Source: Eledone cirrhosa (taxonomy: Eukaryota). From it: a stretch of 64,000 nt of DNA. Each line of letters opens with the position of its first letter. The stretch's first letter is position 1. Made by a program: the position numbers and the translations under genes. The stretch is from the NCBI GenBank assembly GCA_964016885.1, contig OZ024740.1, positions 129,394,001-129,458,000 on the forward strand, in the 5' to 3' direction. The notes below the pieces were generated by a model. It saw only the letters and a program-made list of their open reading frames with translations. It was not told the origin of the DNA and did not search any database. Shown in pieces: positions 5,122-64,000 of the stretch.

Positions 5122-5698
5122 GAAACAATGAAACGAAATTTAATTTCTCACTCTTAGTACGGCTGTTACTTAAATATAAGTATGCATACGTACATACATA
5201 TATGTATACAGACGTACAGTAGTATGTATATATATACATACATGCACATATATATATGTACGTATGGATTCACCGAACATTTATTATAATGCTCGGTTTG
5301 TTTATAAACAATTTCGTTTCATTTTTTCCATTTATCGTTTTCGGTGCGCCCGGCCGATTAACTCACTCGATATGCAAATTAGACTACTCAGCCGTTAATA
5401 TACATAAGGAAAGTATATACTTTCAGACGTTTAATAATCTGGCAGAAAGGTATACGGTGCTGACGATATCTAATAAACTTAAAACTAGTACATCTTTCCT
5501 TTGTCAGTATTGAACAAAAGAGCAACGATGGATGGTAAACACTGTACAGCTTAATTCGGGATGTTTGTTTACAAACAAACCGAGCATTATAATAAATGTT
5601 CGGTGAATCCATACGTACATATATATATATATATATGTGTGCATGTATGTATATATATACATACTACTGTACCTCTGTATACATATATGTATGTACGT

Positions 5699-5704
<6 letters not shown>
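5122..5704. mobile_element. Older copy of the ~520-bp HHR-unit family, with an inverted partial copy
   Basis: 5310-5704 is similar to 45586-46060. About 5185-5308 is the reverse complement of 5567-5704. The HHR at 5455-5495 reads CTGACGA...AAAACTAGTA, with GAAA mutated. Confidence 0.8.
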
Positions 5705-6581: not shown

Positions 6582-6716
6582 CTCTCTCCTCTCTCTCTCT
6601 GTCTATATATATAAATGAAGTAATTCCGTCGGAAAGGTCCAGGAAAAAAGAGTGCTCTATGTAGATAACAGAGCTTAATAGAAAATCCAAATTCAATAAA
6701 CAGACCAGGATTTTTA

Positions 6717-6770
6717 CATTCTGATGATTGAAAGCAAAATTCTTTGCTTTTAAGAAACCACTAGTAAATG
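6717..6770 (+). ncRNA. Minimal type I hammerhead ribozyme
   Basis: CATT-CTGATGA-TTGAAAGCAAA/TTTGCTTTTAA (stem II)-GAAA-CCACTAG-TA-AATG. Stem I is CATT/AATG and the cleavage triplet is GUA. Confidence 0.75.
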
Positions 6771-6889
6771 GAATAATTACGTTATGTTGTTTATTACATA
6801 ACTATATATATATATATATATAAATGGAATAGAATGAAACGAAATTTCATTTCTTACTCTTAGTACGGCAGTTACTTAAATGTACATAG

Positions 6890-7037
<148 letters not shown>

Positions 7038-10273: not shown

Positions 10274-10360
10274 ATCTGTATTGATTCGACCCGACCCTTG
10301 TAGGCTCAGCAGACATATGTTGGCAACTACAGAATTATATATACATATATATATATATAC

Positions 10361-11380
<1,020 letters not shown>

Positions 11381-11439
11381 TTTATATATATATATATATA
11401 TGATATTGTTGATGTCGTCAGATGTTTTAATGATATATA

Positions 11440-11770
11440 TGTCAATAATATTAATACATGGAATATATATATATGAAACCATATTTTTTATATTATACGT
11501 ATTTCAAGTGTACTAATATTAAGTACGCTTTCGTTAGATAAAATATGTAATATTTGGTGTTAAGATAGTGACATATCTTCATGTGAACTTAATGTTTATA
11601 GTTTCAGTGAACTGAATGTTATAAGTTCAGTGGAATTATTTAATGAAGTTCACATGAAGAAGTGTTACTATCTTAGCACCAATTATTATATATTAGTTCT
11701 CTTGAAATACGTATAATAAAATAAATATGGTTCTGTAAAGATATTTTCCATTTATTAATATTATTGATAT
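11440..11770. repeat. Degenerate fold-back element with an HHR remnant
   Basis: Arms pair by eye (AACCATATTT..TATTATACGTATTTCAAG with CTTGAAATACGTATAATAAAATAAATATGGTT). The right arm has ATGAAGA...GAAA-TACGTA-TA-ATAAAATA. Confidence 0.65.
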
Positions 11771-17756: not shown

Positions 17757-19041
17757 GGGCGGGGAATTTTCCCGAGATACATGCACGAGTTCTCTTCAGA
17801 GGTCTCTTTCCCTCATCATCGCTGCCATGTCATGCGTCTCCAGGAGACTGGTGTCTGTCTTTAGGGCATCAACATATGTCAACCTCGGCCTCCCTCTTCC
17901 AGGGTATCCATGCAGGGGTTCCCTCCGGAGGAGTGAGTGCAGTACTAACTCTGGATGTCGGTAAGCATGTCCAGCTAAGCTCAGCTCTGAGGTCTTCATC
18001 CTCAGTGTATTTTGATTAATGTTCAGAGCCATTCACAGCATTTTCGTGTAGCATCCATCCACCATCTGAGTGAGTTTCTTGGTCAGTGCCCAAGCCTCAG
18101 ACCCGTACAGCAGCCCAGACTCCACTACATCAACGAAATAACGGATTCTCAGGTCTTTACGAATGTCCGTCGTTCACACCGACTTGAAACTGTTTCACGC
18201 CGCCCTGGCGGCCTTGCTCTTTCTCTCGACCACATCATCTTCTGTATTCCCAATCTTCACTCCCGAATAGAGAAAGTACTTACCCAATTCTAGCGGGTTC
18301 CCGCCTACATTAGTAATCTTCTCTGGCTTCTTAATACTCTCTACCAAGTACTTCGTTTTAATCTCATTCATTCTCAGCCCCACACTCTCCAACTCCTACA
18401 TCAACTCCTCTACTTTCTTCACTGTGTTTGTCACCAGAACCATGTCGTCAGTGAATTCATCATCCGATAGCTTTTTCTCTTTAAATCTCCTGCTCAGAGA
18501 CAGTGTTACAGTAAAGCATAGTCCTGGTGTTTCTCCAGCACAAGGTGCATATAATAGTCCACTGCGATGAGAAAAATGTAGGGAACCAATGTATTTCCCT
18601 GGGGCACTCCAGCCAGTATCTCAGAGAACTCCGTCATCCCATCAGGTGTAAAGATTTGGGGTTTGGTGTTGGTGTGGAGAAGTGATATCAGGTCCACTAC
18701 CCTCTTGGGGATTTCATAACCCTGTAAGATCTTCATCAGGCAGTGACGGTCCACAGAATCAAAGGCCTTCCTTATGTCGATGAAACCCATGACAGCAGGA
18801 GGGCTCTTTGTTCTAGCTCCCACAAATATCCTCCTCAGCATCATGATGTGACTGTTGGTTGATCTTCCTTCTCTGAAGCCGTTCTGGTTATCCCTGTTCT
18901 TCTTCTCCATATCGGACTGGATCCTGTTAAGAATAATCTTGTTGAGGGCCTTTGCCCCAAGTGATATCAGTGAGATCCTCCTGTAGTAGTTGGCGTTAGA
19001 GAGATCTTCCTACTTTGGCACTGGGATGATGCTACTGACCC

Positions 19042-21329: not shown

Positions 21330-23330
21330 AGATCTTTCCGAATACTTACATACCATCCTCACCTCGTTAGTCGTCAAACTTCCCTCCCACAACCACGATA
21401 CCAATCATGCCCTTAGACTCTTTAACTCCTTCTCCCTGCCTCCTGGCCCCGCTGGGCTTTTGTTAACCTGGTGTTCACCGCCATCTATACCGACATCTTT
21501 CATGATGACGGTCTCCGCGCTCTCCGACACTTTTTAGACTTACGCCCTACTTCTTACCTCAGCACTACCACTCTTCTCCGTCTTGCCGAGTTTGCTTTGA
21601 TACTCAACTCAATGGCTTTTCCTTTTCCGGTGAATTCTACCAGCAGGTCTCTGGTGTGGCGATGGGAACCGGAATGGGACCAAATTATGCCAAATTGCTT
21701 GTTGGCTACGTCGAAGCCCAGATCTTCGCCCAGAACGCTGATCTACTCCTGAGCTATACGGTCGTTATATCGACGACTATATCGGCACCAACTCTCTATC
21801 ACGGAAACAGCTCGATTGGTTTCTATCTTTTGTCCAATCTATCCATGCCGCTAGCAACTTCACCACATCCATCTCCAATTCTACTGTCTCTTTCTCGATA
21901 TCTCTCTATCTACCAATCACTATCACCACACCCTATAAACCAACCGAGTCCCACTCTTAGCTCAACCTCACCTCCTCCGATCCACACAACTCCAAACACT
22001 CCATACCCTATTCCCAATTCCCCCGTCTTCTTCAGCTCTGTAGCCAGGACGACGATTTCGAAACCCATTCCCTTCAGATGACTCCCGCTTGATCCAGCGT
22101 GGATATTCACCCACCCTGATCCAGCTGGCTCTCAACAGCGCCCGTGAAACCGGCCGTACCACATCACCCTCACCTCACCACTTTACAACTCCGGGGACAT
22201 ATCCTCAGTTCCTTCCACCCCCTCTCTACTGACCCCGTCACTTCTCGTTTTTTTCCTAACCCACCTATTACCGCATTTAAGCGCACTGGTAGCAACCACG
22301 AGGTCATGGCACGCAGTTCCTTCTCGTCCTCTGCAACGACTCCACCCAGCTGTCATCCTTGTTCTCCTCCCCGCTGCAACACTTGTCTTTTCAATTCCAC
22401 CCTCACCACTCTCCTAGGTCCTAATGGGTCATTGCGTATCCGCCACTCCTTCACCTGCACCTACACCCACGTGGTGTCTGCTCTCGAGTGTTCTCTTTGC
22501 GGGTCCTTATACATCAGACAAACGGGGCGCCGTATGGCTGAGCGTTTTGCTGAGCATTTCAGGGACAAACGACTCGGTTTGGATACTCCCGTCGCCCATC
22601 ATTTCCGTTCTGCAAGTCACTCTTCCATAAATGTCTCAATCCTTGATGACCTTTTACATTACGGATCACAGGCCTGGCGCACCAGGACTGAACAGAGTCT
22701 GATGTACCGCCTTGTCTCTTGTTTCCCCCATGGACTCAACTTTCCGCCCCAATTCCTTTAATATCCCGTCCGATATCACACATACGAATCCTATGGGTCC
22801 CTTATGGCCAGACAAATATACTCTTACAACTAATACAGATCAACAACATATGCACACTCCACTTTTCCTTACACAGATCTGTATATATATACACACACAC
22901 ACACCCTTATATTAACATAGCTTCGTACTTACAAGTACACACACACACTCTTTTTATTTACATATAAACTCACATATTTCCTTAGCTTCGTACGGACGTA
23001 TAACAACACACACACGCGCTCTTTATACAAAAGTTTTCTTTTCCATTTCTGGTAGACGCGCTCCATCATCGACGTTTGTAAAAAAATATATCATACACAA
23101 AATGCCAGCATAAACAATTTTCCAAGACATGTCAACATGAATGGACTTGTTATTTTTATCAACATACATTCCCATACCCCCACACTCACACACACCCGTC
23201 GCTTCAATCTATTTTATTTCTCACTCTTTTTTCTGAAGAAGGACTAGCGTCCCAAGACCCCGTTCCTGCTATTTCAAGCGTTAACCTAATATATTCCTTC
23301 CATACACTGTACCGAATGTGTTGTTATTTC
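21330..23330 (+). mobile_element. Penelope-like element (Neptune-type), frameshifted RT plus GIY-YIG and 3' pLTR region
   Basis: GVAMGTGMGPNYAKL, RYIDD, a Cys-rich linker (CHPCSPPRCNTC) and HVVSALECSLCGSLYIRQTGRRMAERFAEH...PHGLN. Stop at 22761. Degenerate CTGAAGA-AGGAC/GTCC at 23233. Confidence 0.85.
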
Positions 23331-25055: not shown

Positions 25056-26051
25056 GACAGAATGAGAGTGAGAGAAGGAGAGAGAAACAGGTTACATAAA
25101 CAATTGTGTGTAAGGTACACTTTATCCTTATTTTGGTACACGCAGATTATCTATGTATATACATACATACAAACACACACATGCACATCATACGCGTAAA
25201 AAAAAAATATATATATATATATATACATATATGGGTGGGGCGTATATTTGCATGTGTGCATATACATTATGCAGATACGCACACATTCTTTATATATACA
25301 TATATGCATATATATATATATATATACATATATGCATATATATATATATATTTTTTTTTTTTTTTGTTTAATAAACATAAAGTGTGTATAACATAAAATT
25401 TCCTTTAATATATTAACAATTTAACATTTTATAAGATTCCTATATCTTAAATTAAATTAAAGAATCCTTTATATTTTTTATGTATATGTTATATACGTAG
25501 TTAGATATGTATATGTATTTTTATAAGTGTGTATATATATTTATATGTACGTATTTTTTGCGTGTGTATACGTGTTATGTAATATATAGATCTTTAATAA
25601 TATATGGATTTCTTAATATATAGATCCTAAATGTTAATATATTGATCTCAATATTTAACTGATTAACTAAACATCTTATCATATTTAAACAATGGTTAAA
25701 TTTCTCATATTATATATGTATATTCCATTCACGATTATTAACATTTCTAATTTTTATTTATTCATTTCATCTCAATTGTTAAGTTAACTCAACAAGATAT
25801 GACTTAGAGTTTTTCGTCTCTCTCATGCGTTCCGTCTCCTCTCTGTCTCCATATTTATCTCTCTGTTCATTCTGCTCTCTCTCTCTCTTTCCTTCTCTAT
25901 CTTTCTATTTCTCCGTAACCCAACCGCTTATTTAAAAAATATCCAATACTAATAATTAACGCTATAACTCCAGTATCCGGGAGCTTCCAACAGTAATGGT
26001 TGCATTCTTTAAGGGTATCTCAATATTTATTTATAAAGCTGATCTATATTA

Positions 26052-26116
26052 TATTTTATCTGATGAAAGCACACCATAATTTAACTTGGTGTCCTTGAAA
26101 TATGTATAATGAAATA
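26052..26116 (+). ncRNA. Minimal type I hammerhead ribozyme in the 5' pLTR
   Basis: TATTTTAT-CTGATGA-AAGCACACCA/TGGTGTCCTT-GAAA-TATGTA-TA-ATGAAATA. Stem I is 8 bp and the triplet is AUA. Confidence 0.8.
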
Positions 26117-26293
26117 AATATAGTTTTATAAATATAGTTTCCATTTTTTAATATCGTATTTTTACTCCAAATATTTGTTGATTGCTTTGCATCAGTTATA
26201 AAATATTTGCTTGTTGTATCCCAACAAATTAAATAGAACTCTTACATATATTCTACTCCTGTATTGTCGAGCGCTTTATATTATAACTGGAAA

Positions 26294-28483
26294 ATGGAAT
26301 TCTTTAAGATCTCTTCTTCTCTAAATGACATACCTTTACCTAGGAATAAAGATTTTTTAAACAATTAATAAAAAAACCAGGCTCTTTTATAAGAAGATTC
26401 AGGTGGCTTGCTTTCCACTTCGATAAATCTAATCTAAATGAAAATGTCTCCAATCTGGATAAAATCTACAAATCTGAAAAAATCCACCACCCCTCAACAA
26501 ACTACTAATGGATATTGAAAATGATATCATATCTATCATCCAAAGCATCACATTCAAAACCAACTTCAAAGGCCAGGATTACTTAAGAAATATTAAAAAT
26601 AATATTGAAAACTTGTAGAAAACGGAGAAAATTCTAGTCAACTCTGACAAAACCAATAATCTTTACGGAATACAAAAGGACACTTATAACGATATTATAT
26701 TAAATGAATTAAGGAAGAAATACAAAGTAGCAAATAAAGATGACCTTGAAAAATTGAATACAGATGCCTCTTATATAATGCATGAACTAAGCAACCCTTC
26801 ATGCCAAGGAAACCTAAGATTAATATGAAGGATCATAAAAGGAACTTCGAAACTCATTTACCAGTCAGATTAATTGCACCATCTAAATCGGACCTTGTCA
26901 GACTTAGCAAAAATATTCTAGACAGAATAATACCACAAATTAAAAATTCATCTTATTTAAAATTATGGAAAGGAACTAGTGAAGTTATCGATTGGTTTAA
27001 AGAAATTAAATATAATTATAATAATAAGTTTATTCAGTTGGATATTGCTAACAATTACTCATCTATCACTCCTAATCTACTGAATAAAGCACTAACTTAC
27101 GCATTTAAGCATACAGACCTAACTAGCAATGAAATGCACATTATATTATCGGCACGGAAAACAGTAATAGAATTTAATAACCAACGACTAGGGCAGATAA
27201 AAATAATAATCTTTATATAACCATGGGAACATCCGATTCCGCTCAGGTAACGGAACTTGTGGGCCTCTTTATAATTAATTCTTGACATAGGAAAATACTG
27301 AGATAACCGGAGGTTTATATCGTGACGACATGCTTTTACTTATAGAAAATAATAACTGTGAACTAAATAGAAAAAGAAAACAAATTATACAATTGTTTAA
27401 TTACCTTAATCTAAAAGTAGAAATAGAGAATAACCATCAAATAGTTAACTTTCTAGATGCAACACTAAATCTTAACACATGTCTTCATTATCCATTTCGC
27501 AAACTAAATGAGAACTTAAACTACGTCAATTTTAACTCTAATCACCCCAGATCCGTTAAAAATACTATAGTGAACTCTGTACAGGAACGAATTTCGAGAA
27601 TTTCAGCTAATAAGAATATATTAGATGAAAAAGCACATTATTACAACGAAGCGTTAGATAGAGCTGGGTATAGAAATAAAATTAAATACATTGATAATAA
27701 TTAAAATACAACAACTAACCATAATCGTAACAATTTTAACTATGGTAACAATTTTAACAACTATAATAGAAAACCTTATATTAATTCAGAAAGCGGAAAA
27801 AGAAATATATCTAGGAACATATTATTGTTCGCTCCTCCTTTCTCATTAAATATTAAAACCCCTATTGCTAAACCATTTTTTAAAGCTCTGGAAAAATGCT
27901 TCCCTAGAAAATATAGATATTACTCAATTTTTAATAGACATGCTATAAAATTAACTTAAAATTTAGCGCAAAATATTAATAGAATTAATAATAAAGAAAT
28001 ATAAAACCTAACCAAAATACCACTAATAACCCAAGCAGTATCCAATTTGATAAATGTAACTGCAGAAATAAATCTAACTGTCCGTTAAATAACAATTGCT
28101 TAGCTAAAAATATAGTATATGATTGTAATATAAAAACTAAATTAAATTCATTTAATATTGTGAGATCCACTTCCACAGAGATTAAATCCCGCTTCAATAA
28201 CCATACGAATTATTTTGCAGATCCAAACAAAAAATATTCAACTTCTCTATCTAGCCTATTATGGGATCTCAAACTAAAGAACGTTGTGTATTCGTTGATT
28301 TGGAATATTATTTCGAAAGCTACTCCTTTTAACTCTTCTTCAGAAAAGTGTGATCTTTGTATAGAGGAAATATTCTTTATATTAAAGACCAAAAATTGCC
28401 TGAACTTAAGGAATAATTTATTCAGTTGCTGTAGACATAGATTAAACTCAACGTTTAAATATAAATATAATTTTAAAATGTAA
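26294..28483 (+). pseudogene. PLE reverse transcriptase / GIY-YIG endonuclease ORF, multiply frameshifted
   Basis: N-terminal DIPLP..FIRRFRW, then PVRLIAPSKS, LDIANNYSSI, MGTSDSAQVTELVG, LYRDD, VNFLD, SNHP, CNCRNKSNCPLNNNC, IVY, KSRFNNH, CDLC and C-terminal SCCRH. Confidence 0.88.
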
Positions 28484-28720
28484 AACTATATAATTAATTA
28501 ATTAATTTAATTGATATATTGAACCTGTCGATAAATCATTAGATTCCTTCATCCTTTTTTGAATGATTATACACTCAAATAAAAATAACATTTCTTCCTA
28601 AATATAAATAAATATAATATAATTAAACTATTCTATATAAATATACTGAGAGCTCTTGAGGGGAGAAAATATTTCTTATATTTTTTATTTTTTATTTTTT
28701 ATTTATTTATTTTTTATTAT

Positions 28721-28886
28721 TTGATTGGCAGTATCAGTAGAGAGTCGGACGCCATGCCTTCCAGCATAGTTACGTCCTTTTACGATCTGAGTTCAAATCC
28801 CGCCGAGGTTGACTTTGCCTTTCATCCTTACCGGGTCGATAAAATAAAGTACCAGTAATGCACTGGATAATTGCTGGACTTGTGCC
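28721..28886 (+). mobile_element. tRNA-derived SINE, family A, inserted in the PLE 3' region
   Basis: Same head, B-box and body as the other family A copies. Confidence 0.88.
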
Positions 28887-30187
28887 TAAATTAGAGACAA
28901 TTATTTGATAGCTTCTCCTATTTTCGAAAGTGTATCCTTTCAAAGTGTCTGTTTATTTTTCTTATGGATATAAAATTAAGTTAAATATACGTAGAACATT
29001 TTCTATACTTAATATATTAAACATACTATTATTTTGAAATTATAACTTAAAATATTCAAAATTTCTTTATTTAAAGTTATATTGATTTTAAAGTTATATT
29101 GCTTATAATTATATTTCCAAATCGTAATATAGTTCTTTTGTATTTTATGTACTCAATTATACTATGTAATGTATTTATATGTACTTCTATCTATATGTGT
29201 GTACATATGTATATGTGTGTATTGACATGCATGTACATATGTTTTATGTGTGTATTGACATGCATGTACATATGTTTTATGTGTGTATGTCTATCTGTAT
29301 GTTTATATAAACGTGATGCGTATCTACCTATTTGTGAGGGTACATATCTGTATGTATATTTGGGAATTGTGTATGTACATGTGCGTGTTTATCCATATAA
29401 TTCGATCGCACTCATGTATAGTGATTATCCCAAGATTCGTGACAAAAAAACATATAATACCTGCCATAAATACATAACAGGTAATCTTATAAAACTTATA
29501 TAAATTGTGTTTAATAACATAAAGTGTGTATAACATAAAATTTCCTTTAATATCTTAACAATTTAACATTTTATAAGATTCCTATATCTTAAATTAAATT
29601 AAAGAATCCTTTATATTTTGTATGTATATGTTATATACGTAGTTAATATGTATATGTATTTTTTTAAATGTGTATATATATTTATATGTACGTATTTTTT
29701 GCGTGTGTATACGTGTTATGTAATATATAGATCTTTAATAATATATGGATTTCTTAATATATAGATCCCAATTTTTTATATATTGATCTCAATATTTAAC
29801 TGATTAACTAAACATTTTATCATATTTAAACAATGGTTACATTTTTCATCTTATGTATGTATATTCCATTCATGATTATTAACATTTCTAATTTTTATTT
29901 ATTCATTTCATCTCAATTGTTAAGTTAACTCAACAAGATATGAGTTTTTCGTTCTCTCTCATTTTGTCCATCTCCTCTCCCTCTCCATATTTCTCTCTCT
30001 GTTTATTCTGCTCTCTCTCTCTCTTTCCTTCTCTATCTTTCTATTTCTCTGTAACCCAACGGCTTATTTTAAAAATATCCAATACTAATAATTAACGCTA
30101 TAACTCCAGTATCCGGGAGCTTCCAACAATAATGGTTGCATTCTTTAAGGGTATGTCAATATTTATTTATAAAACTGATCTATATTA

Positions 30188-30252
30188 TATTTTATCTGAT
30201 GAAAGCACACCATAATTTAACTTGGTGTCCTTGAAATATGTATAATGAAATA
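30188..30252 (+). ncRNA. Minimal type I hammerhead ribozyme in the 3' pLTR
   Basis: Same core and stems as 26052-26116. Confidence 0.8.
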
Positions 30253-31219
30253 AATATGGTTTTATAAATATATTTTCCATTTGTTAATATCGTATATATA
30301 TATATATGCTCGTGTATATATGTGTGCCTGTTTTTTTTATTTTCATAAAATTCTTCAATCATAATATTGCTAGCTGTATGGAAATCAAAAGACATTCAAT
30401 TATAGGCACTGAAATGGTGAAATTCAACGATCCAGTTAATTGATTTTTAACAACAACTAATTGACCGCTTTTGCGAATATAGATTTCTTTAAGTAAAATG
30501 AGATCTCGGATAGATGAATATGCTTAAGTGGGTGTTGTGGTGTTTGTGCTAAAATCAAATACAATAAATACCAAAAGAACAACACAGTAAAATGTTTCCA
30601 AGTGGATATAAATAAATGATAGTTTTAGGTTGAAGACGGATAAGTACACTTAAGGCTATATCAACTAAGAAACAATACATATTAGAAATAACAGTCATGT
30701 TTCTTTAAATTTCCCCTTACTACCTCCTACAACGAAGGATATTTAAGAGAATGTCATCCCTTCCTCGTATAAGAATGGCCAGAATACTTTTGATCATGTA
30801 TTTACTTAATCACGTTCAATCTGTGGCTAGAAAAACAAACCTGCGAATGAAAGTTGTATCCTCCAAATAGCTACACGGTCTGATTGAAATACGTGATAAG
30901 CATCTACTCGTCAATATACACTAGCAGAAAAGTGCCACAGATATCAAGAATAAAATCAAATGATAGTAATTATCACGAAAGCCAGGGGGCAAACGAAGAA
31001 CGCTTACAATTCATTCCAACTAATTTTCTCTAATTTGGGTGACAAGCAAAATAAGTCGGTATCTTTTATGTGAAATGAAAATTTGACATTGATTCTTGCA
31101 AGAATAATATCTAAATGGATGAAGATTAGAAATACTGTAATACATTATACATATAATGTTGTTCATAAATACAAAGAAAACATACACTCGCGCGTACTGC
31201 AGCTCCGAATATAGAGGAG

Positions 31220-39834: not shown

Positions 39835-40590
39835 TGTTAGAGGAGGTTTTATGCATGCGGCGCCTTTGATTCTTAAGCCGATTCATTGTGGATGTTGGGT
39901 ATCCGTTCGTCTTCAGTACTTCTATGGCGTGTTCAATGTAAGTGATCTGGTCCTTTGTCTTGCTACATTTATTCCGGATACATGTAAGATCATTTCTTAA
40001 GTATCCGGTTTTAGCTCGAAGGGAAATGCACAAATAGGTATCTGCTGGCAGATTTGCTATATAAGTTATTGGTGTATATAGCACATTCGTCTGTTACTCC
40101 AAGTTGGAAGTCCAGCAGATACAAGGAACCATTTTAATCGGGGTGTTCTGTGGTAAATCCTCTAACATCAGCTTCACGAAATTACCACATTTAAGCGAAA
40201 GCATGACCACATATATCCACAAAGCTATCCGCAAAGGAGGACTGGACATACAATTAGCACACTCCGGCACTTCCCTGCGTGGATACCAGTCTAAAAAGCA
40301 ATCTAGAGACAAGCAATGCTCACTGACTAACTGCCCAATCCTCGATACAGCTATGTCCCAGTGGACACATGTAGTATACTGGATTGAATACAACAAATGC
40401 AAGGAGTTCTACATAGGTAACACGACTCGAGCCAACGATACTCGCATTAAAGAAGACCTCAACACACATGCATCCTCATTAAAAAAACACATTGACAAAT
40501 GTAAAGACATCAGCCAACATATTACAGTTACTATTAAAGCCAATGATAGAAATGTGAGGAACTTAAGAATAAAGGAAATTAGAACTTAGC
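39835..40590 (+). mobile_element. PLE fragment (RT thumb plus GIY-YIG) with internal inversion
   Basis: Minus 39835-40157 reads FTTEHPD*NGSLYLLD...LKTNGYP. Plus 40158-40589 reads KLPHLSE...HVVYWIEYNKCKEFYIGNTTR...RNLRIKE. Confidence 0.8.
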
Positions 40591-43656: not shown

Positions 43657-44753
43657 CTATATTTCCAGACTTATCTGTGCCGCCCCCAGATTAATTTGTA
43701 TTTCTTCTTACACCCTTCTTACAAAATAAAACACATATACTGACCTGTGTATAATGTTACAATTTGATAGGACTAACTGTCTTTGCATACGGCATTAGTT
43801 ACATTTAGTTTTATATTTTACGGTTATTTCACTTGTATAATATGAATTGTGATATTTTATGAATGGCGTTTGTGTTTTCTATTTGCCGTATGATTGATGT
43901 TCCAAGGTTTAATAACGGTTCATGATATTGTAGAGTAGATGCCTCATAATGTGTTATGTTGCGTGACTTCATGAGAGAAACGGGGGTCAATGAATCGTGT
44001 ATGGATTATGTACGTGCAGCAGTGAGAACTCTGAGTGTGTTACAAAGTAAATCGAATGTATACATGAATTTGTGTCAGAAGACGATTTTGCTTGATATAC
44101 AGTCTTCACCAGTTTTCACCAGTTTTCCACAGTTTTCCCCGAATTAATAACATAATGAATATGTAATTATGTTTATATACTTTTATAAACAAATTTTGCA
44201 TAGGATCTATACCATTAAAGAAAATTCGCCAAATTATACTTAAATATATAAGTGAATTGTTGGGTAACACGTATATAATGTGTTTGTGTAAGAATATAAA
44301 CATTCATTTCATAAAGGAACACACCAGAGAAATATGGCGACTTCAAACATGTCGCATGATACGAAATGCATGTGTTTCCTCCTATTTTCTAAATTCGTAT
44401 AAATTCAACATAATTGGGACATATACGCAACGTGAAGAAGTTCAGACTCTCAAAATATTGTCTCATATAATATGGATTCAGGAAATGTGTTTTCAAATAA
44501 GAAAATCATTCAATGCATCCTTTCCAATTGAAATTAAAGCATGCACTTTGTTTATTATAAAGAGACTAGGTTTAATTGTCAGTATAATTTTTGGATATAT
44601 ATCCATATATATATACATACATATATATATATATATATACTTCGAAATAAAATGAAAACGAAATTTCATTTCTCACTCTTAGTATGGCACTTACTTAAAT
44701 GTAAGTATGTATGTATACGTACATACATATATGTATACAGACGTACAGTAGCA

Positions 44754-44839
<86 letters not shown>

Positions 44840-45734
44840 CAGGTATACATACATATATGCACGCATCAGTTTAGCGGACGCTTATTCTAACGCCGCTTTG
44901 TTCGTTTGTAAACAAACTGAACAGCTTGAATTTATGCCATACGGTGTTAAGGCAACCACGTCATCTTTTTGTTCAACACTGACACAGGAATGATGTACTA
45001 GTTTCAAGCTTGTTAGATATCATCACCACCGTATACCCATCTGCCAGATAGTTGAACGTTCGAAAGTATATACTATATAGCTATATTTCCATATACTATA
45101 TAGCTATATATACTTTCGGGAGAGATGACCCCTTAGCGTTTGTCAATGCAGAATTCTAGGAGAAGGAAAACTATGATATAACACCTGAAACCCTGATGGT
45201 ATCCAATGATGTTGACTTGTTCTTCTTTTTGGTAAATATCATCTTGGTTAAGAGAGTGGGACTGGCTTTGTGCTGTGCCTTTGCTCACTATAAAAGCTTC
45301 ACGGCACAGGCATTACTTTATATCTGGAGATCTCTCTGCACTTGTCCTCACATGGTACCATCGGCCCAGCACTATGTGTCAATAATTGTCACAAGTGTAG
45401 TGTTTGTACCAGAGGTTTCAAGTCGCTGGCTGGACTAAAAAGTCACACTCGTTCAGCGCTTCGGTAGGGGTTCTCCTACATGGATATAAAGTAGTGGCCG
45501 TACTCGTAAACGAGTTGGCAGCCACCATGTACGTATACATACATACTTACATTTAAGTAAGTGCCATACTAAGAGTGAGAAATGAAATTTCGTTTTCATT
45601 TTATTTCAACTTATCGTGTTCGGTATGCCTGACCGATTTAACACACTCAATATGCAAATTAGGCTGCTCAGCCGTTAATTTTCATAAGGAAAGTATATAC
45701 TTTCGAACGTTCAACTATCTGGCAGATGGGTATA

Positions 45735-45775
45735 CGGTGCTGATGATAGCTAACAAGCTTGAAACTAGTACATCG
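45735..45775 (+). ncRNA. Minimal type I hammerhead ribozyme, tandem unit 1
   Basis: CGGTG-CTGATGA-TAGCT-AACA-AGCTT-GAAA-CTAG-TA-CATCG. Stem I is CGGTG/CATCG, stem III is palindromic CTAG and the triplet is GUA. Confidence 0.82.
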
Positions 45776-45926
45776 TTCCTGTGTCAGTGTTGAACAAATA
45801 GGTGACGTAGTTGCCTTAACACCGTATGGCATAAATTCAGGCTGTTCAGTTTGTTTACAAACGAACAAAGCGGCGTTATAATAAGCGTCCGCTAAACTGA
45901 TGCGTGCATATATGTGTGTATACCTG

Positions 45927-46018
<92 letters not shown>

Positions 46019-46255
46019 TGCTACTGTACGTCTGTATGCATATATGTATGTACGTATACATACATACTTACATTTAAGTAAGTGCCATACTAAGAGTGAG
46101 AAATGAAATTTCGTTTTCATTTTATTTCAACTTATCGTTTTCGGTATGCCTGACCGATTTAACTCACTCAATATGCAAATTAAGCTGCTCAGCCGTTAAT
46201 TTTCATAAGGAAAGTATATACTTTCGAACGTTCAACTATCTGGCAGATGGGTATA

Positions 46256-46296
46256 CGGTGCTGATGATAGCCAACAAGCTTGAAACTAGTACATCG
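46256..46296 (+). ncRNA. Minimal type I hammerhead ribozyme, tandem unit 2
   Basis: Same motif 521 nt downstream, with one change in stem II. Confidence 0.8.
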
Positions 46297-46545
46297 TTCC
46301 TGTGTCAGTGTTGAACAAAAAGGTGACGTCGTTGCCTTAACACCGTATGGCATAAATTCAGGCTGTTCAGTTTGTTTACAAACGAACAAAGCGGCGTTAT
46401 AGTAAGCGTCCGCTAAACCGATGCGTGCATATATGTGTGTATACCTGTATGTATGTATATATATATATATATATATATATGCATGCTACTGTACGTCTGT
46501 ATACATATATGTATGTACGTATACATGCATACTTACATATATATA

Positions 46546-46622
<77 letters not shown>

Positions 46623-46684: not shown

Positions 46685-47110
46685 TTTGAGTATGAGTTGG
46701 TTGTTTACCGACACATCAGTATGCAGGTTGGAGCATTCAACGAAGTGCGCAGGTTGGTTTGTTCACTCCGGAGTAATGTAACATAATATGAGTAATTCAA
46801 ACATGTTAAAGTTGGCTTCGCACATTCTAATTCGCTGCTATATATATTTCAGTGACAGCTATTATTGGCTCATCAGGCAGTAAGAATTAAAGAAGAAAAA
46901 ACATGAAAGCATCACGTTGTTATATGTTCAACCCTATTAATTCATCTATATGTCCAGCTCCTGTGTGTGTTGTTAGTCCTCAAAGGAACTGGAAGCAATT
47001 GTTACTGTCTGACGAGGTCACAGCCAATAATGGCTGTCACTGAAATATATATAGCAACGAATTAGAATGAAGGAGGCCAACTTTAATATCTCTGACTTAC
47101 ACATATTATT
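46685..47110. mobile_element. Fold-back HHR element, same family as 59855-61485
   Basis: Left end TTGAGTATGAGTTGGTTG...GAAGTGCGCAGGTTGG. HHR on minus at 46834-46881 (stem II partly deleted) and on plus at 47004-47058 (CTGACGA...GAAA-TATATA-TA). Confidence 0.8.
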
Positions 47111-47401: not shown

Positions 47402-47435
<34 letters not shown>

Positions 47436-47437
<2 letters not shown>

Positions 47438-47895
47438 GATATTTACAAATAGAAACTATATTTATAAAACCATATTTATTTCATTATACATATTTCAAGG
47501 ATACCATGTTAAATTATGGTATGCCTTCATCAGACAAAATACAATATATACCAGTTTTATAAATAAACATTGACGTACCCTTTCAAAATTGAACCGTTAC
47601 TTTTGGAAGACAACAGGATATCCTGATGTCTTCCAAATGTAACGATTGCATTTTGAAAGGGTACGTCAATGTTTATTTATAAAACTGGTATATATTGTAT
47701 TTTGTCTGATGAAGGCATACCATAATTTAACATGGTATCCTTGAAATATGTATAATGAAATAAATATGGTTTTATAAATATAGTTTCCATTTGTTAATAT
47801 CGTATATTTACTCCAAATACTTGTCAAGTGCTTTATATCAGTTATAAAAATATTTGCTTATTGTATCCCAACAATTTAAATAGAACTTTTGCATA
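47436..47895. mobile_element. Spacer-less palindrome of the pLTR 3' end of the 25365-30295 PLE family, with an HHR on each strand
   Basis: Arms 47436-47619 and 47620-47804 are centred on CAGGAT|ATCCTG. HHRs at 47477-47541 (-) and 47698-47762 (+). The right arm extends about 90 bp, matching 26158-26250. Confidence 0.9.
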
Positions 47896-47911: not shown

Positions 47912-49890
<1,979 letters not shown>

Positions 49891-55987: not shown

Positions 55988-57710
55988 AGAATCAAGGGTA
56001 ATGATGTTACCAACTATAGACCTATCACATGTCTGTCCTTTATGTGGAAACTGTTGACAAGAATTGTGTCTGAGGAAATCTACCATAACCTGCACACTAA
56101 CAACCTGTTATCGGACGAACAGAAACGATGCCGAAAGAAGTCCCGTGGTACAAAGGACCAGTTACTTATTCATAAGATGGTAATGAGGAATTGCAAGAGG
56201 AGACACACTGGTCTTGCCATGGCAAAAAGGTATTTGACATGGCGCCTCATTCTTGGATCACCAAAAGCCTAGAGATCTTCAGGGTGGCAGATCACATCAG
56301 ACAGTTGTTGACCAAAAGTATGAAGTCTTGCAAAACAGAGTTAACATCAGCTGTAGAATCCTTGGGAGGCGTGAAGATCAAGAGAGGTATCTTCCAGGGA
56401 GATAGCCTGTCCCCTCTGTTGTTTGTCCTTGCCCTGATGTCCCTGACCATTATACTGCGAAAAGTGAGAGGAGGATACAAGTTTGGAAAGGGAGGGCTTA
56501 CCATCAATCACCTCCTCTTCATGGACGATCTTAAGCTCTTCGGGAAGAATGAGAAGGTTTTGGATGTGCTTGTTGACACTGTCCGTATTTTCAGCAATGA
56601 TATATGTATGCAATTTAGTATTAGTAAGTGTGGAGTCCTTGTGATTAAGAGGGGTAAATTGAGCAGAAGCAACGGAATCCAGGTACCAACAGGTGAGATG
56701 ATAAAGGAAATTGATGCTGAAGAAGGATACAAATATTTAGGTGTTCTCGAGGCTGATGACATCAAGAACAAGAAAATGAAGGAATTGATAAGATCTGAAT
56801 ACATTCGGAGGAGTAAGGAGCGTATTAAATTCACATCAAAACAGTAGGAATGCCGTAAGTGCAATACATTTCCCAACTGTGTCTATTATTAGGTACAGTG
56901 CGGGAATTCTGACATGGAATGCTGCTGAACAAAAAGAAATGGATAGGAAGACTAGGAAGCTATTGACTATCTACAACATGTTACACAAAAGGAGTGATGT
57001 CGATAGACTCTACTTTGGGAGATATGAAGGTGGAAGAGGTCTTATCAGCATAGAGGACTGTGTTCAGATGGAGAAAAACAACCTACACAAATACGTGACT
57101 GATAGTAGGGACCCTAGGCTCAGAATTGCCCAGACACTTTATAAAGGCTGGAGACATGATGGGCAGCGTGATCCACTGGCACCTATGCAAAATAAACAAT
57201 TTACCACATTCTGATAAGTGGAATGAGCATAAGCCAGAGTCTGTGATGGAAAACGATCAGCTGAATGTGCTGTGGGATTTTAGGATACAGACGGGAAAGA
57301 AACTGGAACACAATAGACGTGACCTGGTGGTTTTGAACAAGGGAAAAAGATCGTGCCTGATTGTGGATGTAGACTGCCCATTCGACACGACAGTGTAAGA
57401 AAAGGAGAGGGCGAAATTTAATCGATATCAGGACATAAAATGGGAGGTAAAAAGGATATGGAACTGCCATGAAGTCAGAGTCGTCCCGATTGTTATGGGC
57501 GCACTAGGTACTAACTCAAAGAGTTTCCAAGGATGGTCAAAGAAAATTAGTCCATCTCCGCTTTTTGGAACACTTCAAAAGGCATGCTTGCTAGGAACAG
57601 CAAGAACTGTCCGATACGTCCTGAATATCTGAGGCTGCAGGTAGCGGATTGATATTCATTTCAACAAACTTTCCAGTTAAATGACATCAATGACTGAAAC
57701 TCAAAAAACC
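55988..57710 (+). mobile_element. Dong/R4-clade LINE, 5'-truncated RT plus RLE pseudogene
   Basis: NYRPITCL, GIFQGDSLSPLLF, HLLFMDDLKL, YKYLG, GGRGL, RHD, LWDFRIQT..HNRRDLVV and VVPIVMGALG. The zinc-knuckle region appears deleted near 57125. Ends in a TAA-rich tail. Confidence 0.92.
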
Positions 57711-59857: not shown

Positions 59858-60558
59858 AGTATAAGTTGGTTGTATACCACACCTCAGTATGCAGATTAGA
59901 GCACTCGACGAAGTGCGTAGGTTGGTTTGGTTACTCCGGAATAATGTAAAATAAAATAAAATAAATAAGTCAAATGTTTAAAATTTGGCTTCGTTTATTA
60001 CTGCTATATATATTTCGGTGACAGCCATCTTTGGCTGTGACCTCTTCAGGCAGTCCGAATTAGTGTGCTAGAGACGAGTACACATGTTGTTGAGGTGTAT
60101 AACTTTGTCAATACTGTGATATGTCCAGTTCCTGATGGAGTTATTATTTCACTGAGGAACTGGAATCATAGGAATTTAAACAAACGAATTTCAGCGCCAA
60201 AGGGCCTATTCTCCTCTCATTGGTCAGTTGTTAGAACATTCCTCAGTCAAAATGTTCTAACAACTGACAGAGAATGTTCTAACAACTGACCAATGAGGGG
60301 AGAAGAGGCCCTTTGACGCTGAAATTCGTTTGTTTAAATTCATATGATTCTAGTTCCTAAGTGAAATATCAACCCAACCAGGAATTGGACATATCAGAGT
60401 ATTGATAAATTTATACAACTCAACAACATGTGTACTCGTCTCTACCACACTAATTCGGACTGGCCGAAGAGGTCACAGCCAAAGATGGCTGTCACCGAAA
60501 TATATAGCACTAATAATCGAGGCCAAATTTTAAACATTTGACTTATTTATTTTATTTT
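59855..60558. mobile_element. Fold-back non-coding element with an HHR on each strand, copy 1
   Basis: Arms about 59950-60241 and 60274-60558. Intact HHR at 60000-60054 (-) and a mutated HHR at 60459-60511 (+). The left arm has a ~90-bp extension. Confidence 0.9.
60000..60054 (-). ncRNA. Minimal type I hammerhead ribozyme
   Basis: Minus strand: ACTGC-CTGAAGA-GGTCACAGCC/GGCTGTCACC-GAAA-TATATA-TA-GCAGT. Perfect 5-bp stem I and palindromic stem III. Confidence 0.85.
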
Positions 60559-60574
60559 ATATATATATATGAAT

Positions 60575-60701
<127 letters not shown>

Positions 60702-60702
60702 G

Positions 60703-60770
<68 letters not shown>

Positions 60771-60772
60771 CA

Positions 60773-61485
60773 TTTTGAGTATATGTTGGTTGTATACCAA
60801 CACCTCAGTTTGCAGATTGGAGCACTGGACGAAGTGCGCAGGTTGGTTTGGTTCCTCCGGAGTAATGTAAAATAAAATAAAATAAATAAGGGAAATGTTT
60901 AAAATTTGGCTTCGTTTATTACTGCTATATATATGTCGGTGACAGCCATCTTTGACTGTGACCTCTTCAGGCAATCCGAATTAGTGTGGTAGAAACGAGT
61001 ACACATGTTGTTGAGGTGTATAACTTTGTCAATACTCAGATATGTCCAGTTCCTGGCTGAGTTATTATTTCACTGTGGAACTGGAGTCATATGAATTTAA
61101 ACAAACGAATTTCAGCGTCAAGGGGCCTCTTCTCCTCTCATTGGCTAGTTGTTAGAACATTCCTCAGTCAAAATGTTCTAACAATTGACAGGAATGTTCT
61201 AACAACTGACCAATGAGAGGAGAAGAGGCCCTTTGACGCTGAATTCGTTTGTTTAAATTCCTATGATTCCAGTTCCTCAGTGAAATGACAACCCAACCAG
61301 GAACTGGACATATCTGAGTATTGACAAAGTTATACACCTCAACAACATGTGTACTCGTCTCTACCACACTAAATCAGACTAGCTGAAGAGGTCACAGCCA
61401 AAGATCGCTGTCACCGAAATATATATAGCAGTAATAAACGAAGCCAAATTTTAAACATTTGACTTATTCATCTTATTTTATTTTA
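60773..61485. mobile_element. Fold-back HHR element, copy 2, in tandem with copy 1
   Basis: Same layout and same central junction as 59855-60558. HHRs at 60921-60975 (-, GAAA changed to GACA) and 61378-61432 (+, core intact, stem I weakened). Confidence 0.9.
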
Positions 61486-61503
61486 TATATATATTCATAT
61501 ATA

Positions 61504-62663: not shown

Positions 62664-62699
62664 ATATATACATATGTAGGAGGTGAGTTTTATTGTAGT

Positions 62700-63633
62700 A
62701 CAATAAAGCAATGCTGATATCGGATAAGAAGCACTCTACGGGTTTGTAGGACTGGAGTATACATAATATATAAGATCAAAAGCTGGTTAAATGAGTTCCG
62801 TGTATTTCATTATGCGCATTTCAAAAACAAATATCATCATGCAATAACATTTGTGTTTTCATCAGATAAAATAGGAGGACATGATATGAAGGTTAAAAAC
62901 ACTTGTGGATAGTGCAGTTTTAAATCAACATATGAAAAGTAGTTTTAGATTGATGTGTCATATTGGGGAAACATTTTTTTTTTGAGGGGGGAGGTTGGAA
63001 AGGATGAAAAAGAGGAGGAGATGAGAGTAAAAAGTGGAGGGGGAGGAGTATAATGAGGAAGGATGAGATAGGAGCAGAGATGGCTGATAGAGAGAGAGTG
63101 ATAGCTTTTATAACTGAGAAAAATATATTGTTTTACATAGAGAGGTTGAAAAACCGTTGGAAGATATTGTATAAATTAAAAGATTTTGAAAATTAACGAA
63201 GAGAAAAATAATGTAAAGTTAAGGTTTGTATATTGAAGGGTTTAATAATATGTGCGATGGAAAGAAAATGTTGATATGTATTATTAAAAAAACAGAAGTA
63301 ATGTAAGTAAGGATATATTGTGAGATGAGCATGAATAAGTTAGATGAAAGTGAGAAAAAAATAATGAATAGAGGATGAATAATCTAACGTCAAAAAAATA
63401 TTTATGTTTACGAATGATTTTTTCAAGGTGAAATAAAGTAAGAATATAGTGTATTGTGTAATAATTGTTTCTATGTTAGGCACAGTGAGAAAAGGTACAG
63501 ATTAGGGGTTAAAAATTAAATGAAAAAGAAAAGAAAAGGGAAAAGGAAGAAAGGGAAGTGATTAATAGGAATGATATAGAATATGATAAATACCTTTGAA
63601 TTAAGGTAGAAAGATGGGTATATTTTTAAAGAA

Positions 63634-63727
<94 letters not shown>

Positions 63728-64000
63728 CTTTGAGAAAGAATGCTATAGTTAATAATATTGGAAAAAGAATATCTAACCTATCTTTTAATAAAAACATCTT
63801 CGATGCTGACACCAAATACTATAATAACGCGCTTTCTTTAAGCCGGCTATCCTGGTAAAATCAAATATAATAAAGAAACAAATTCTAGAAAATCTTACAG
63901 TAGAATAATTAATCATGATCATTCCAATAACTTTAATAAAAGACCTAGATACAAAAACATAATCTGGTATAATGCTCCTTTCTCCATCTCTATTAATAAT
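62700..64000. mobile_element. PLE related to 25365-30295: inverted pLTR followed by a plus-strand ORF fragment running off the window
   Basis: 62700-63634 is a purine-rich tract resembling an inverted pyrimidine-rich pLTR and contains an HHR. 63722-64000 encodes NAIVNNIGKRISNLSFNKNIFDADTKYYNNAL, similar to NTIVNSVQERISRISANKNILDEKAHYYNEAL. Confidence 0.75.
62803..62873 (-). ncRNA. Minimal type I hammerhead ribozyme in an inverted pLTR
   Basis: Minus strand: TATTTTAT-CTGATGA-long stem II-GAAA-TGCGCA-TA-ATGAAATA. Stem I is identical to that of the 26052 family. Confidence 0.82.

What the first reader, a model, noticed from the sequence alone, without database searches (positions are those of the whole stretch)
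44645..46530. 521-nt tandem HHR unit resembling a non-LTR retrozyme that could yield a circular RNA
Seen: head-to-tail copies with intact HHR cores whose GUA sites (after 45770 and 46291) are exactly 521 nt apart. The unit has no ORF and contains its own (TA)n tract. An inverted copy has a C3G core mutation (44991-45031), and older relatives lie at 5122-5704 and about 6825-6890. Established: minimal HHRs with palindromic stem III (here CTAG) cleave as dimers, and metazoan tandem-HHR retrozymes give monomeric circRNAs. Inference: read-through transcription could release and circularise a 521-nt monomer, which may be an undescribed retrozyme family in this lineage.
Basis: partly seen in the sequence, partly recalled or inferred. 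Interest (0 to 1): 0.75.

Follow-up and report, generated by a model that had tools for sequence, protein, structure and literature searches.

The report
Penelope-hitchhiking hammerhead repeat, two-armed insertion
This is one insertion of an abundant protein-less repeat whose units each carry a hammerhead (self-cutting RNA) motif and whose copies end like Penelope-type jumping genes, so it is likely pasted in by a borrowed Penelope enzyme, possibly from an RNA circle that nobody has yet detected.

Summary
In detail: type I hammerhead cores with predicted cut sites after 45770 and 46291, an inverted C3G copy and no ORF. But 521 nt is locus-specific (family spacing 426-573 nt), the second stem II carries a mismatch, and a LINE-derived piece sits between the arms. 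The genome holds 10,500 exact copies of a 35-nt core. The locus is one two-armed insertion in (TA)n. All 37 of 37 sampled insertions with two readable outer ends carry the ~60-nt Penelope 'tail' on exactly one end. Units within an array share one haplotype, often with array-private changes, as if one unit were copied repeatedly. No copy was the pLTR of an intact ORF; three of 74 loci are fused to Hydra-clade Penelope coding pieces, which names a likely driver. Verdict: a non-autonomous Penelope-mobilised element of the animal non-LTR retrozyme kind, a new family of a known kind. Cleavage, transcription and the circle are untested; published data show weak, protein-assisted cleavage and uncut templates for such ribozymes. 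This scan has already reported similar two-armed hammerhead families elsewhere in this genome.

The parts
44595..44639 (.). Left (TA)n-rich target flank
44640..45074 (-). Inverted arm, about 0.85 unit, 5'-truncated; its outer end (about 44640-44700) carries the ~60-nt tail; own TA tract 44757-44858
44990..45032 (-). Inverted hammerhead copy, C3G plus stem I and stem II changes; predicted inactive
   Evidence: C3G abolishes cleavage per PMC11167929
45075..45119 (.). Fold-back/slippage filler at the inversion junction, built from the unit's palindrome
   Evidence: origin inferred
45120..45527 (+). 5'-truncated piece of a separate, young ~620-nt LINE-derived repeat (C2H2-like remnant, ATGT/TA tail), joined to the plus arm by a short microhomology
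   Evidence: zf-C2H2 E=8e-4, below cut-off; 2332 candidates, best others 97-98%
45527..46537 (+). Plus arm, about 1.9 head-to-tail units, ending at the untailed 3' end
45652..45704 (+). Octamer ATGCAAAT (45652-45659) and TATA-containing palindrome (45689-45704); possible internal promoter, repeated at +521
   Evidence: sequence; 0.91-0.93 identity in older copies against 0.79-0.83 on either side; motif name recalled, function inferred
45734..45776 (+). Type I hammerhead 1: 6-bp stem I, CUGAUGA, U.U plus 4-bp stem II, GAAA, palindromic CUAG, predicted cut after 45770
45771..46291 (+). Predicted cut-to-cut monomer, 521 nt (437 nt plus 84-nt TA tract)
45927..46015 (+). Internal (TA)n tract; its length sets the unit length
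46073..46135 (+). Tail segment: its two borders are the two fixed 3' ends of family insertions (inferred reverse-transcription start sites)
   Evidence: PMC11167929
46255..46297 (+). Type I hammerhead 2, core intact, private T>C at 46272 weakens stem II; predicted cut after 46291
46538..46600 (.). Right (TA)n target flank
5122..5704 (.). Older-subfamily two-armed insertion; core has G12A
6825..6890 (-). Older tailed-end fragment, no ribozyme

Best explanation
This is a two-armed insertion of a high-copy, ORF-less hammerhead repeat in a (TA)n tract, likely pasted by the reverse transcriptase-endonuclease of an autonomous Penelope-like element (PLE; best candidate a young Hydra-clade family), which likely copied one unit sequence repeatedly, possibly from a circle made by hammerhead cutting and ligation. 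Shown: unit anatomy, copy number, (TA)n flanks, two fixed 3' ends about 60 nt apart, tail on exactly one arm, one haplotype per array, fusions with Hydra coding DNA. Inferred: the enzyme nicks both strands of (TA)n, starts cDNA at the two internal RNA sites (as shown for the anole PLE), and the two 5'-truncated cDNAs are joined head to head. The starts lie about 300 nt downstream of the ribozyme cut, so arms of several units need a template that continues across the cut site: a ligated circle (about 0.5), or uncut or end-jumped linear RNA (about 0.4). Untested: transcription, cleavage, ligation.
For: 10,500 exact 35-nt cores, control 0; 15,100 copies of the 25-mer after the cut. In 85 position-sampled loci (93 insertion groups), 37 of 37 with both outer ends readable have one tailed and one untailed end; 119 of 125 3' ends are followed by (TA)4+. 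These are the PLE marks of PMC8557442 and PMC11167929, and the autonomous Hydra family shows inverted arms and its own ~95-nt tail. 105 full units in 52 arrays: median difference 0.28% within (150 pairs), 3.6% between (5310 pairs); subfamily haplotypes run through both arms; 11 of 24 multi-unit arrays have array-private changes in all units. No pile-up of 5' ends at the cut site: 1 of 42 sites picked by the downstream motif alone. Common hammerhead variants fall only at N7, loop 2 and G.U to A-U in stem I; 166 of 179 cores intact. L111 and L114 join this unit to Hydra coding DNA with the tail on one outer end only; L166 is a head-to-head fusion with a related Hydra piece. TA-shortened circle folds at z=-6.1 against 40 shuffles. 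The axolotl Amex2 ribozyme, also U.U at stem II, cuts as a dimer and gives circles.
Against: Minimal PLE hammerheads cut poorly in vitro; only 1 of 9 Xenopus dimers cut; in the anole PLE cleavage was dispensable, protein-assisted, and uncut RNA was the main template. Naiad PLEs show tails and tandems without canonical hammerheads, so these marks do not prove a circle. 17 private changes are shared by some but not all units of an array (12 in the old array L120; also L119, L024, L148, L149), pointing to some DNA-level duplication or conversion; only 53 of 78 units have their nearest neighbour in their own array (partly expected with young subfamilies). The Hydra family shares no sequence with the unit; the fusions are 3 of 74 loci and could be successive insertions with target deletion; abutment within 150 nt was 5 of 14 Hydra-bearing loci against 0 of 8 others, a small sample, and L149 looks like a plain insertion. 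Neptune/Nematis-type PLEs here also end in (TA)n. Only 50 of 10,596 GIY-YIG candidates were inspected for a homologous parent. Hammerhead conservation is partly built in by how loci were picked.
Confidence: 0.8

Rival explanations
1. Same non-autonomous PLE-driven element, but the template is uncut linear multimeric RNA (or linear monomers with RT end-to-end jumps); the hammerhead is weak or a passenger and no circle forms. This rivals only the circle step.
For: Uncut RNA is the dominant substrate and ribozyme mutants still insert in the anole PLE; weak cleavage of minimal ribozymes; no pile-up at the cut site fits uncut RNA equally; tails and tandems in hammerhead-less Naiads.
Against: Copying linear multimers with 5' truncation cannot lengthen arrays, yet arrays of 7, 11 and 14 units exist; array-private changes in all units need a single-unit step; common ribozyme variants keep the fold.
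Confidence: 0.4
2. The copies are 5'-truncated ends (pLTRs) of an autonomous PLE not yet found, with no independent life cycle.
For: Ends, tail, inversion and target are PLE-like; the search for a parent covered 50 of 10,596 GIY-YIG candidates.
Against: The unit runs directly into the next unit in multi-unit arrays; none of 74 loci of 5-10 kb has an ORF framed by two units; several subfamilies evolved as ORF-less units.
Confidence: 0.08
3. Single or partial units insert by retrotransposition and arrays then grow at DNA level (unequal exchange, slippage at TA tracts, conversion), as satellites do.
For: 17 partly shared private changes, mostly in the old array L120; the 2026 preprint proposes local amplification.
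Against: 148 singleton changes against 17 partly shared, and nearly identical units on both inverted arms of young arrays L113, L142, L148; the tail rule holds whatever the array length.
Confidence: 0.15
4. A DNA-level element (MITE/foldback) whose inverted arms are terminal repeats; the hammerhead motif is incidental.
For: Inverted arms and TA flanks.
Against: Arms have variable 5' truncation, two non-identical fixed ends, many single-arm copies and head-to-tail multimers.
Confidence: 0.02

Closest known systems
Animal non-LTR retrozymes (Cervera and de la Pena 2020, PMC7229834, parts 2-4 of 6 read; Li, Clavereau and Pollet 2026, 10.64898/2026.07.22.740005, parts 1-3 of 5 read)
   Same: ORF-less tandem units with a type I hammerhead each, under 50% GC, dispersed monomers to multimers, predicted self-paired monomer, coexisting PLEs; U.U at stem II base as in axolotl HHR_Amex2; unit length inside the 51-972 bp range of the preprint.
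   Different: Longer than the 170-400-nt circles shown by northern blot; variable internal TA tract; two-armed insertions with a one-sided tail, not described for retrozymes in the parts read; no homologous pLTR parent found, unlike 24 of 57 Xenopus families; RNA not shown.
EN+ Penelope-like elements, Hydra clade (Craig et al. 2021, PMC8557442, passages and section 11 read)
   Same: (TA)n target, partial tandems, inverted 5'-truncated arm, tail at one end, hammerhead with palindromic helix III.
   Different: No ORF; tail about 60 nt rather than 30-40; no sequence similarity to the Hydra family found fused to it.
PLE minimal hammerheads (Cervera and de la Pena 2014, PMC4209133, parts 1-2 of 4 read) and the anole Poseidon element PAc (Frangieh et al. 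2024, PMC11167929, parts 1-2 of 4 read)
   Same: Small palindromic helix III suited to dimer folding; two fixed insertion ends bounding a tail, matching two internal RT starts.
   Different: Lacks the usual G10.1-C11.1 pair; here the ribozyme lies about 300 nt upstream of the starts in a non-coding unit.
Non-autonomous Chlamys PLEs such as MRC1 (passage in PMC8557442)
   Same: Non-coding, multicopy head-to-tail insertions driven by a PLE.
   Different: Those share 3' sequence with their driver, and most Chlamys lack canonical hammerheads.

Membership tests
Animal non-LTR retrozyme | At least two consecutive tandem units each with a type I hammerhead | tested here: met
Animal non-LTR retrozyme | No protein coding capacity; no ORF attached | tested here: met
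   74 loci of 5-10 kb, none with an ORF framed by units
Animal non-LTR retrozyme | Dispersed high-copy mobile family | tested here: met
Animal non-LTR retrozyme | Stable, self-paired predicted monomer | tested here: met
   z=-6.1 with the TA tract shortened, 40 shuffles
Animal non-LTR retrozyme | Self-cleavage as monomer or dimer | not testable with these tools
   motif only; Rfam below threshold
Animal non-LTR retrozyme | Expressed as linear and circular monomers | not testable with these tools
   only contig sets without library record were available
Animal non-LTR retrozyme | Target-site duplications longer than 4 bp when present | tested here: inconclusive
   flanks are (TA)n, duplications cannot be read
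PLE-mobilised element | [quoted passage not shown] | tested here: met
   37 of 37
PLE-mobilised element | Inverted 5'-truncated arm and partial tandems | tested here: met
PLE-mobilised element | Microsatellite (TA)n target | tested here: met
   119 of 125 ends
PLE-mobilised element | Sequence homology to the pLTR of an autonomous PLE | tested here: inconclusive
   none in 50 GIY-YIG loci or the Hydra family; most candidates not inspected
Autonomous PLE | RT plus GIY-YIG ORF | tested here: not met
Hydra clade (candidate driver, L127/L114 family) | C-terminal GIY-YIG with CxCX5C linker, CxxC and CxH motifs, hammerhead, (TA)n target | tested here: met
   translation, ends, definition; motif match only, no tree built

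The most novel reading that the evidence does not exclude
A Hydra-clade Penelope enzyme recognises this unrelated non-coding RNA by structure alone, primes at two internal sites from both strands of a (TA)n break and rolls round a hammerhead-made RNA circle, sometimes jumping to its own mRNA. The fused insertions would then be the first direct genomic identification of the driver of an animal retrozyme, and the octamer/TATA block would make the unit self-transcribing.
Probability: 0.3. Interest if true: 0.72.

Novelty: new member of a known kind. Interest (0 to 1): 0.5.

Why it matters
The papers read propose, but do not show, that PLEs mobilise animal retrozymes and that circles are the template. 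This family supplies testable specifics: two exact start sites, a strict one-tail rule, single-haplotype arrays on both arms, and a named young Hydra-type ORF found fused to it. With the published PLE in vitro assay, driver identity and circle-versus-linear template can be tested directly. The class of element is known, and this scan has reported the same architecture for other hammerhead families in this genome, so this locus alone is not surprising.

Tried and rejected
RNA evidence: no RNA holder listed; contigs of four runs without library record were laid and cannot show ends, strand or a circle, so they were not used. Two motifs seen at loose ends, tried as handles on a parent element, had 0 matches in the genome. 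L102 and L085 looked like ORF plus unit but are older units inserted at or beyond the 3' end of unrelated PLEs. The excess of the downstream over the upstream 25-mer (15,100 against 11,002) first suggested truncation at the cut site but is due to older subfamilies. Rfam microRNA hits come from TA-rich hairpins, below threshold. Free folding of the 43-nt motif does not form helix III; a constrained energy evaluation returned an invalid value and the two-motif cofold did not give the dimer ribozyme fold; only the helix III duplex (-6.8 kcal/mol) was computed. L149 is read as insertion beside a Hydra copy, not a fusion. L022 was dropped from the private-variant count as a young copy nested in an old one. 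Pfam did not recognise the window's PLE fragments well. A look-up of earlier findings by sequence found nothing.

Full report
Observation. Two type I hammerhead motifs lie at 45734-45776 and 46255-46297 with predicted cut sites after 45770 and 46291, 521 nt apart, and a third, inverted copy has C3G. The unit has no coding frame. Rfam finds nothing at gathering score and weak HH9 matches below it. The base of stem II is U.U, helix III is the palindrome ACUAGU, and copy 2 has a private change in stem II. The length 521 is 437 nt plus a TA tract; 70 spacings in sampled arrays run 426-573 nt. The relative at 5122-5704 has a broken core and the one at 6825-6890 lacks a ribozyme.

The locus. It is one insertion between (TA)n tracts: a minus arm 44640-45074, a fold-back filler, a 5'-truncated piece of a LINE-derived repeat (45120-45527) and a plus arm 45527-46537. 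Whether the LINE-derived piece was captured during copying or inserted later with a deletion cannot be told.

The family. The genome is 3.0 Gb; earlier notes of this scan call it a cephalopod, which I did not test. It holds 10,500 exact copies of a 35-nt core, control 0, and 15,100 of the 25-mer after the cut. I sampled loci by position from the first listed matches on contig C1. In 85 loci there were 93 insertion groups with 1 to 14 ribozyme units (48 with one, 26 with two, 19 with three or more). Of these, 37 had both outer ends readable, and all 37 had one end at the short site and one about 60 nt further on; 49 showed one readable 3' end and 7 were unclear. 119 of 125 ends are followed by (TA)4 or more. 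Inverted 5'-truncated arms, a one-sided tail and microsatellite targets are the marks of Penelope-like elements (PMC8557442, passages). In the anole PLE the tail is the stretch between two internal start sites of reverse transcription (PMC11167929, parts 1-2 of 4).

Is it only a pLTR? No locus showed an ORF framed by two units: ORF scan of 60 loci and tblastn with 12 PLE peptides on 74 loci of 5-10 kb. Of 10,596 GIY-YIG candidates I inspected 50; two had older units nearby, both separate insertions. A homologous parent is therefore not found but not excluded.

How arrays arise. Among 105 full units in 52 arrays, the median difference is 0.28% within and 3.6% between arrays. Each array carries one subfamily haplotype, across the inversion too, apart from one nested case. 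Of 24 multi-unit arrays, 11 have array-private changes in every unit, this locus included; 148 private changes are singletons and 17 are partly shared, 12 of them in one old array. This fits arrays born at once by repeated copying of one unit sequence, with some later DNA-level exchange. The 3' ends lie about 300 nt downstream of the ribozyme cut, and 5' ends do not pile up at the cut: 1 of 42 sites, with breakpoints spread along the unit. A cut linear monomer is thus an unlikely template; a circle, an uncut multimer or end-to-end jumping remain.

Is the ribozyme real? In 179 copies the only common variants are at N7, in loop 2 and G.U to A-U in stem I, and 166 cores are intact; part of this conservation is built in by the sampling. 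The axolotl Amex2 ribozyme with the same U.U base cuts as a dimer and its repeats give circles (PMC7229834, parts 2-4 of 6). Against: minimal PLE ribozymes cut weakly (PMC4209133, parts 1-2 of 4); 1 of 9 Xenopus dimers cut (preprint 10.64898/2026.07.22.740005, parts 1-3 of 5); the anole ribozyme needed protein and was dispensable for insertion. The monomer with its TA tract shortened folds as a circle at z=-6.1. An octamer and a TATA palindrome upstream of the ribozyme are better kept than their neighbours; newt satellite 2 has an snRNA-type promoter (seen as a passage and citation in PMC2220036), so an internal promoter is a lead only.

The driver. L114 runs from a Hydra-family untailed 3' end back through its EN and RT into this unit, with this unit's tail at the far end; L111 is the reverse, with this unit's untailed end and the Hydra tail; L166 is a head-to-head join with a related Hydra piece. 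That family has an open frame of about 660 aa with the CxCX5C, CxxC and CxH motifs of the Hydra clade, is young (top 40 matches 99-100%) and shows inverted, tailed insertions of the same build. It shares no sequence with the unit. Template switching within one insertion is the simplest reading, since the one-tail rule is kept, but successive insertion with deletion is possible, and other (TA)n-ending PLEs are present.

Comparison and novelty. By the genomic criteria this is an animal non-LTR retrozyme, a class already proposed to be non-autonomous PLEs. The RNA criteria could not be tested. Searches for octopus or cephalopod with hammerhead, Penelope or retrozyme and general retrozyme and PLE searches listed no paper on such a family; the squid genome paper only counts 235 hammerhead matches (passage). 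Supplements and repeat databases were not seen. Earlier notes of this scan, read, describe two-armed hammerhead families in this genome, one with ends 59 bases apart and one linked to Hydra elements; some may be subfamilies of this one. They agree but are not independent support. One note's editing marks were not seen in my sample.

Verdict. Real, a new family of a known kind; PLE mobilisation about 0.9 likely, retrozyme-type non-autonomy about 0.8, circular template about 0.5, Hydra as driver about 0.55. Interest 0.5.

Noticed in passing
window 25505-30339: A decayed Hydra-type PLE: frameshifted RT and GIY-YIG pieces (26786-28483) between two direct repeats 4136 nt apart, each with a hammerhead (26054, 30190).
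   Followed up: partly
window 47429-47810: Perfect head-to-head palindrome of the same pLTR family with hammerheads on both strands (47539 minus, 47700 plus).
   Followed up: no
window 46839-47100 and 59879-61488: Another hammerhead family (TATATA helix III) in inverted and direct arrangements.
   Followed up: no
window 62676-64000: A tailed, inverted copy of the candidate Hydra driver family at the window's end.
   Followed up: partly
window 21509-22761, 40065-40589, 48300-49735: Decayed fragments of three further PLE families; RTE-like and other LINE pieces at 10327-11516, 18506-19009 and 56176-57214 (labels from recalled motifs).
   Followed up: partly
L091 (G000:C1:145870000-145876500): Near-intact PLE with CX3CX2C linker, 938-aa frame and ~900-nt pLTRs ending in (TA)37; by eye its pLTR has a U3/A8-type hammerhead variant with a CCGG palindrome.
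   Followed up: partly
L094 3' region and window 16326 (minus): Hammerhead with U.U at the base of stem II and a GTAC palindrome downstream of an autonomous PLE ORF, the same build as the finding's ribozyme.
   Followed up: no
window 45120-45527; L152-L158: A young ~620-nt non-autonomous LINE-derived repeat with a C2H2 remnant and ATGT tail, 2332 candidates; in L152 it sits in the TA tract of an older unit of this family.
   Followed up: partly
L123:3002 onward: An RTE-like LINE tail is joined directly to the unit at nearly the same ATG-TAC site as the LINE-derived piece in the window; possible hotspot.
   Followed up: no
L127:4507, L145:3838: Head-to-head joins of this unit with ends of other short repeat families, possibly arms copied from different RNAs.
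   Followed up: no
window 6610-6780: A different hammerhead-like repeat (long stem II, CACTAG helix III) next to the older end fragment.
   Followed up: no
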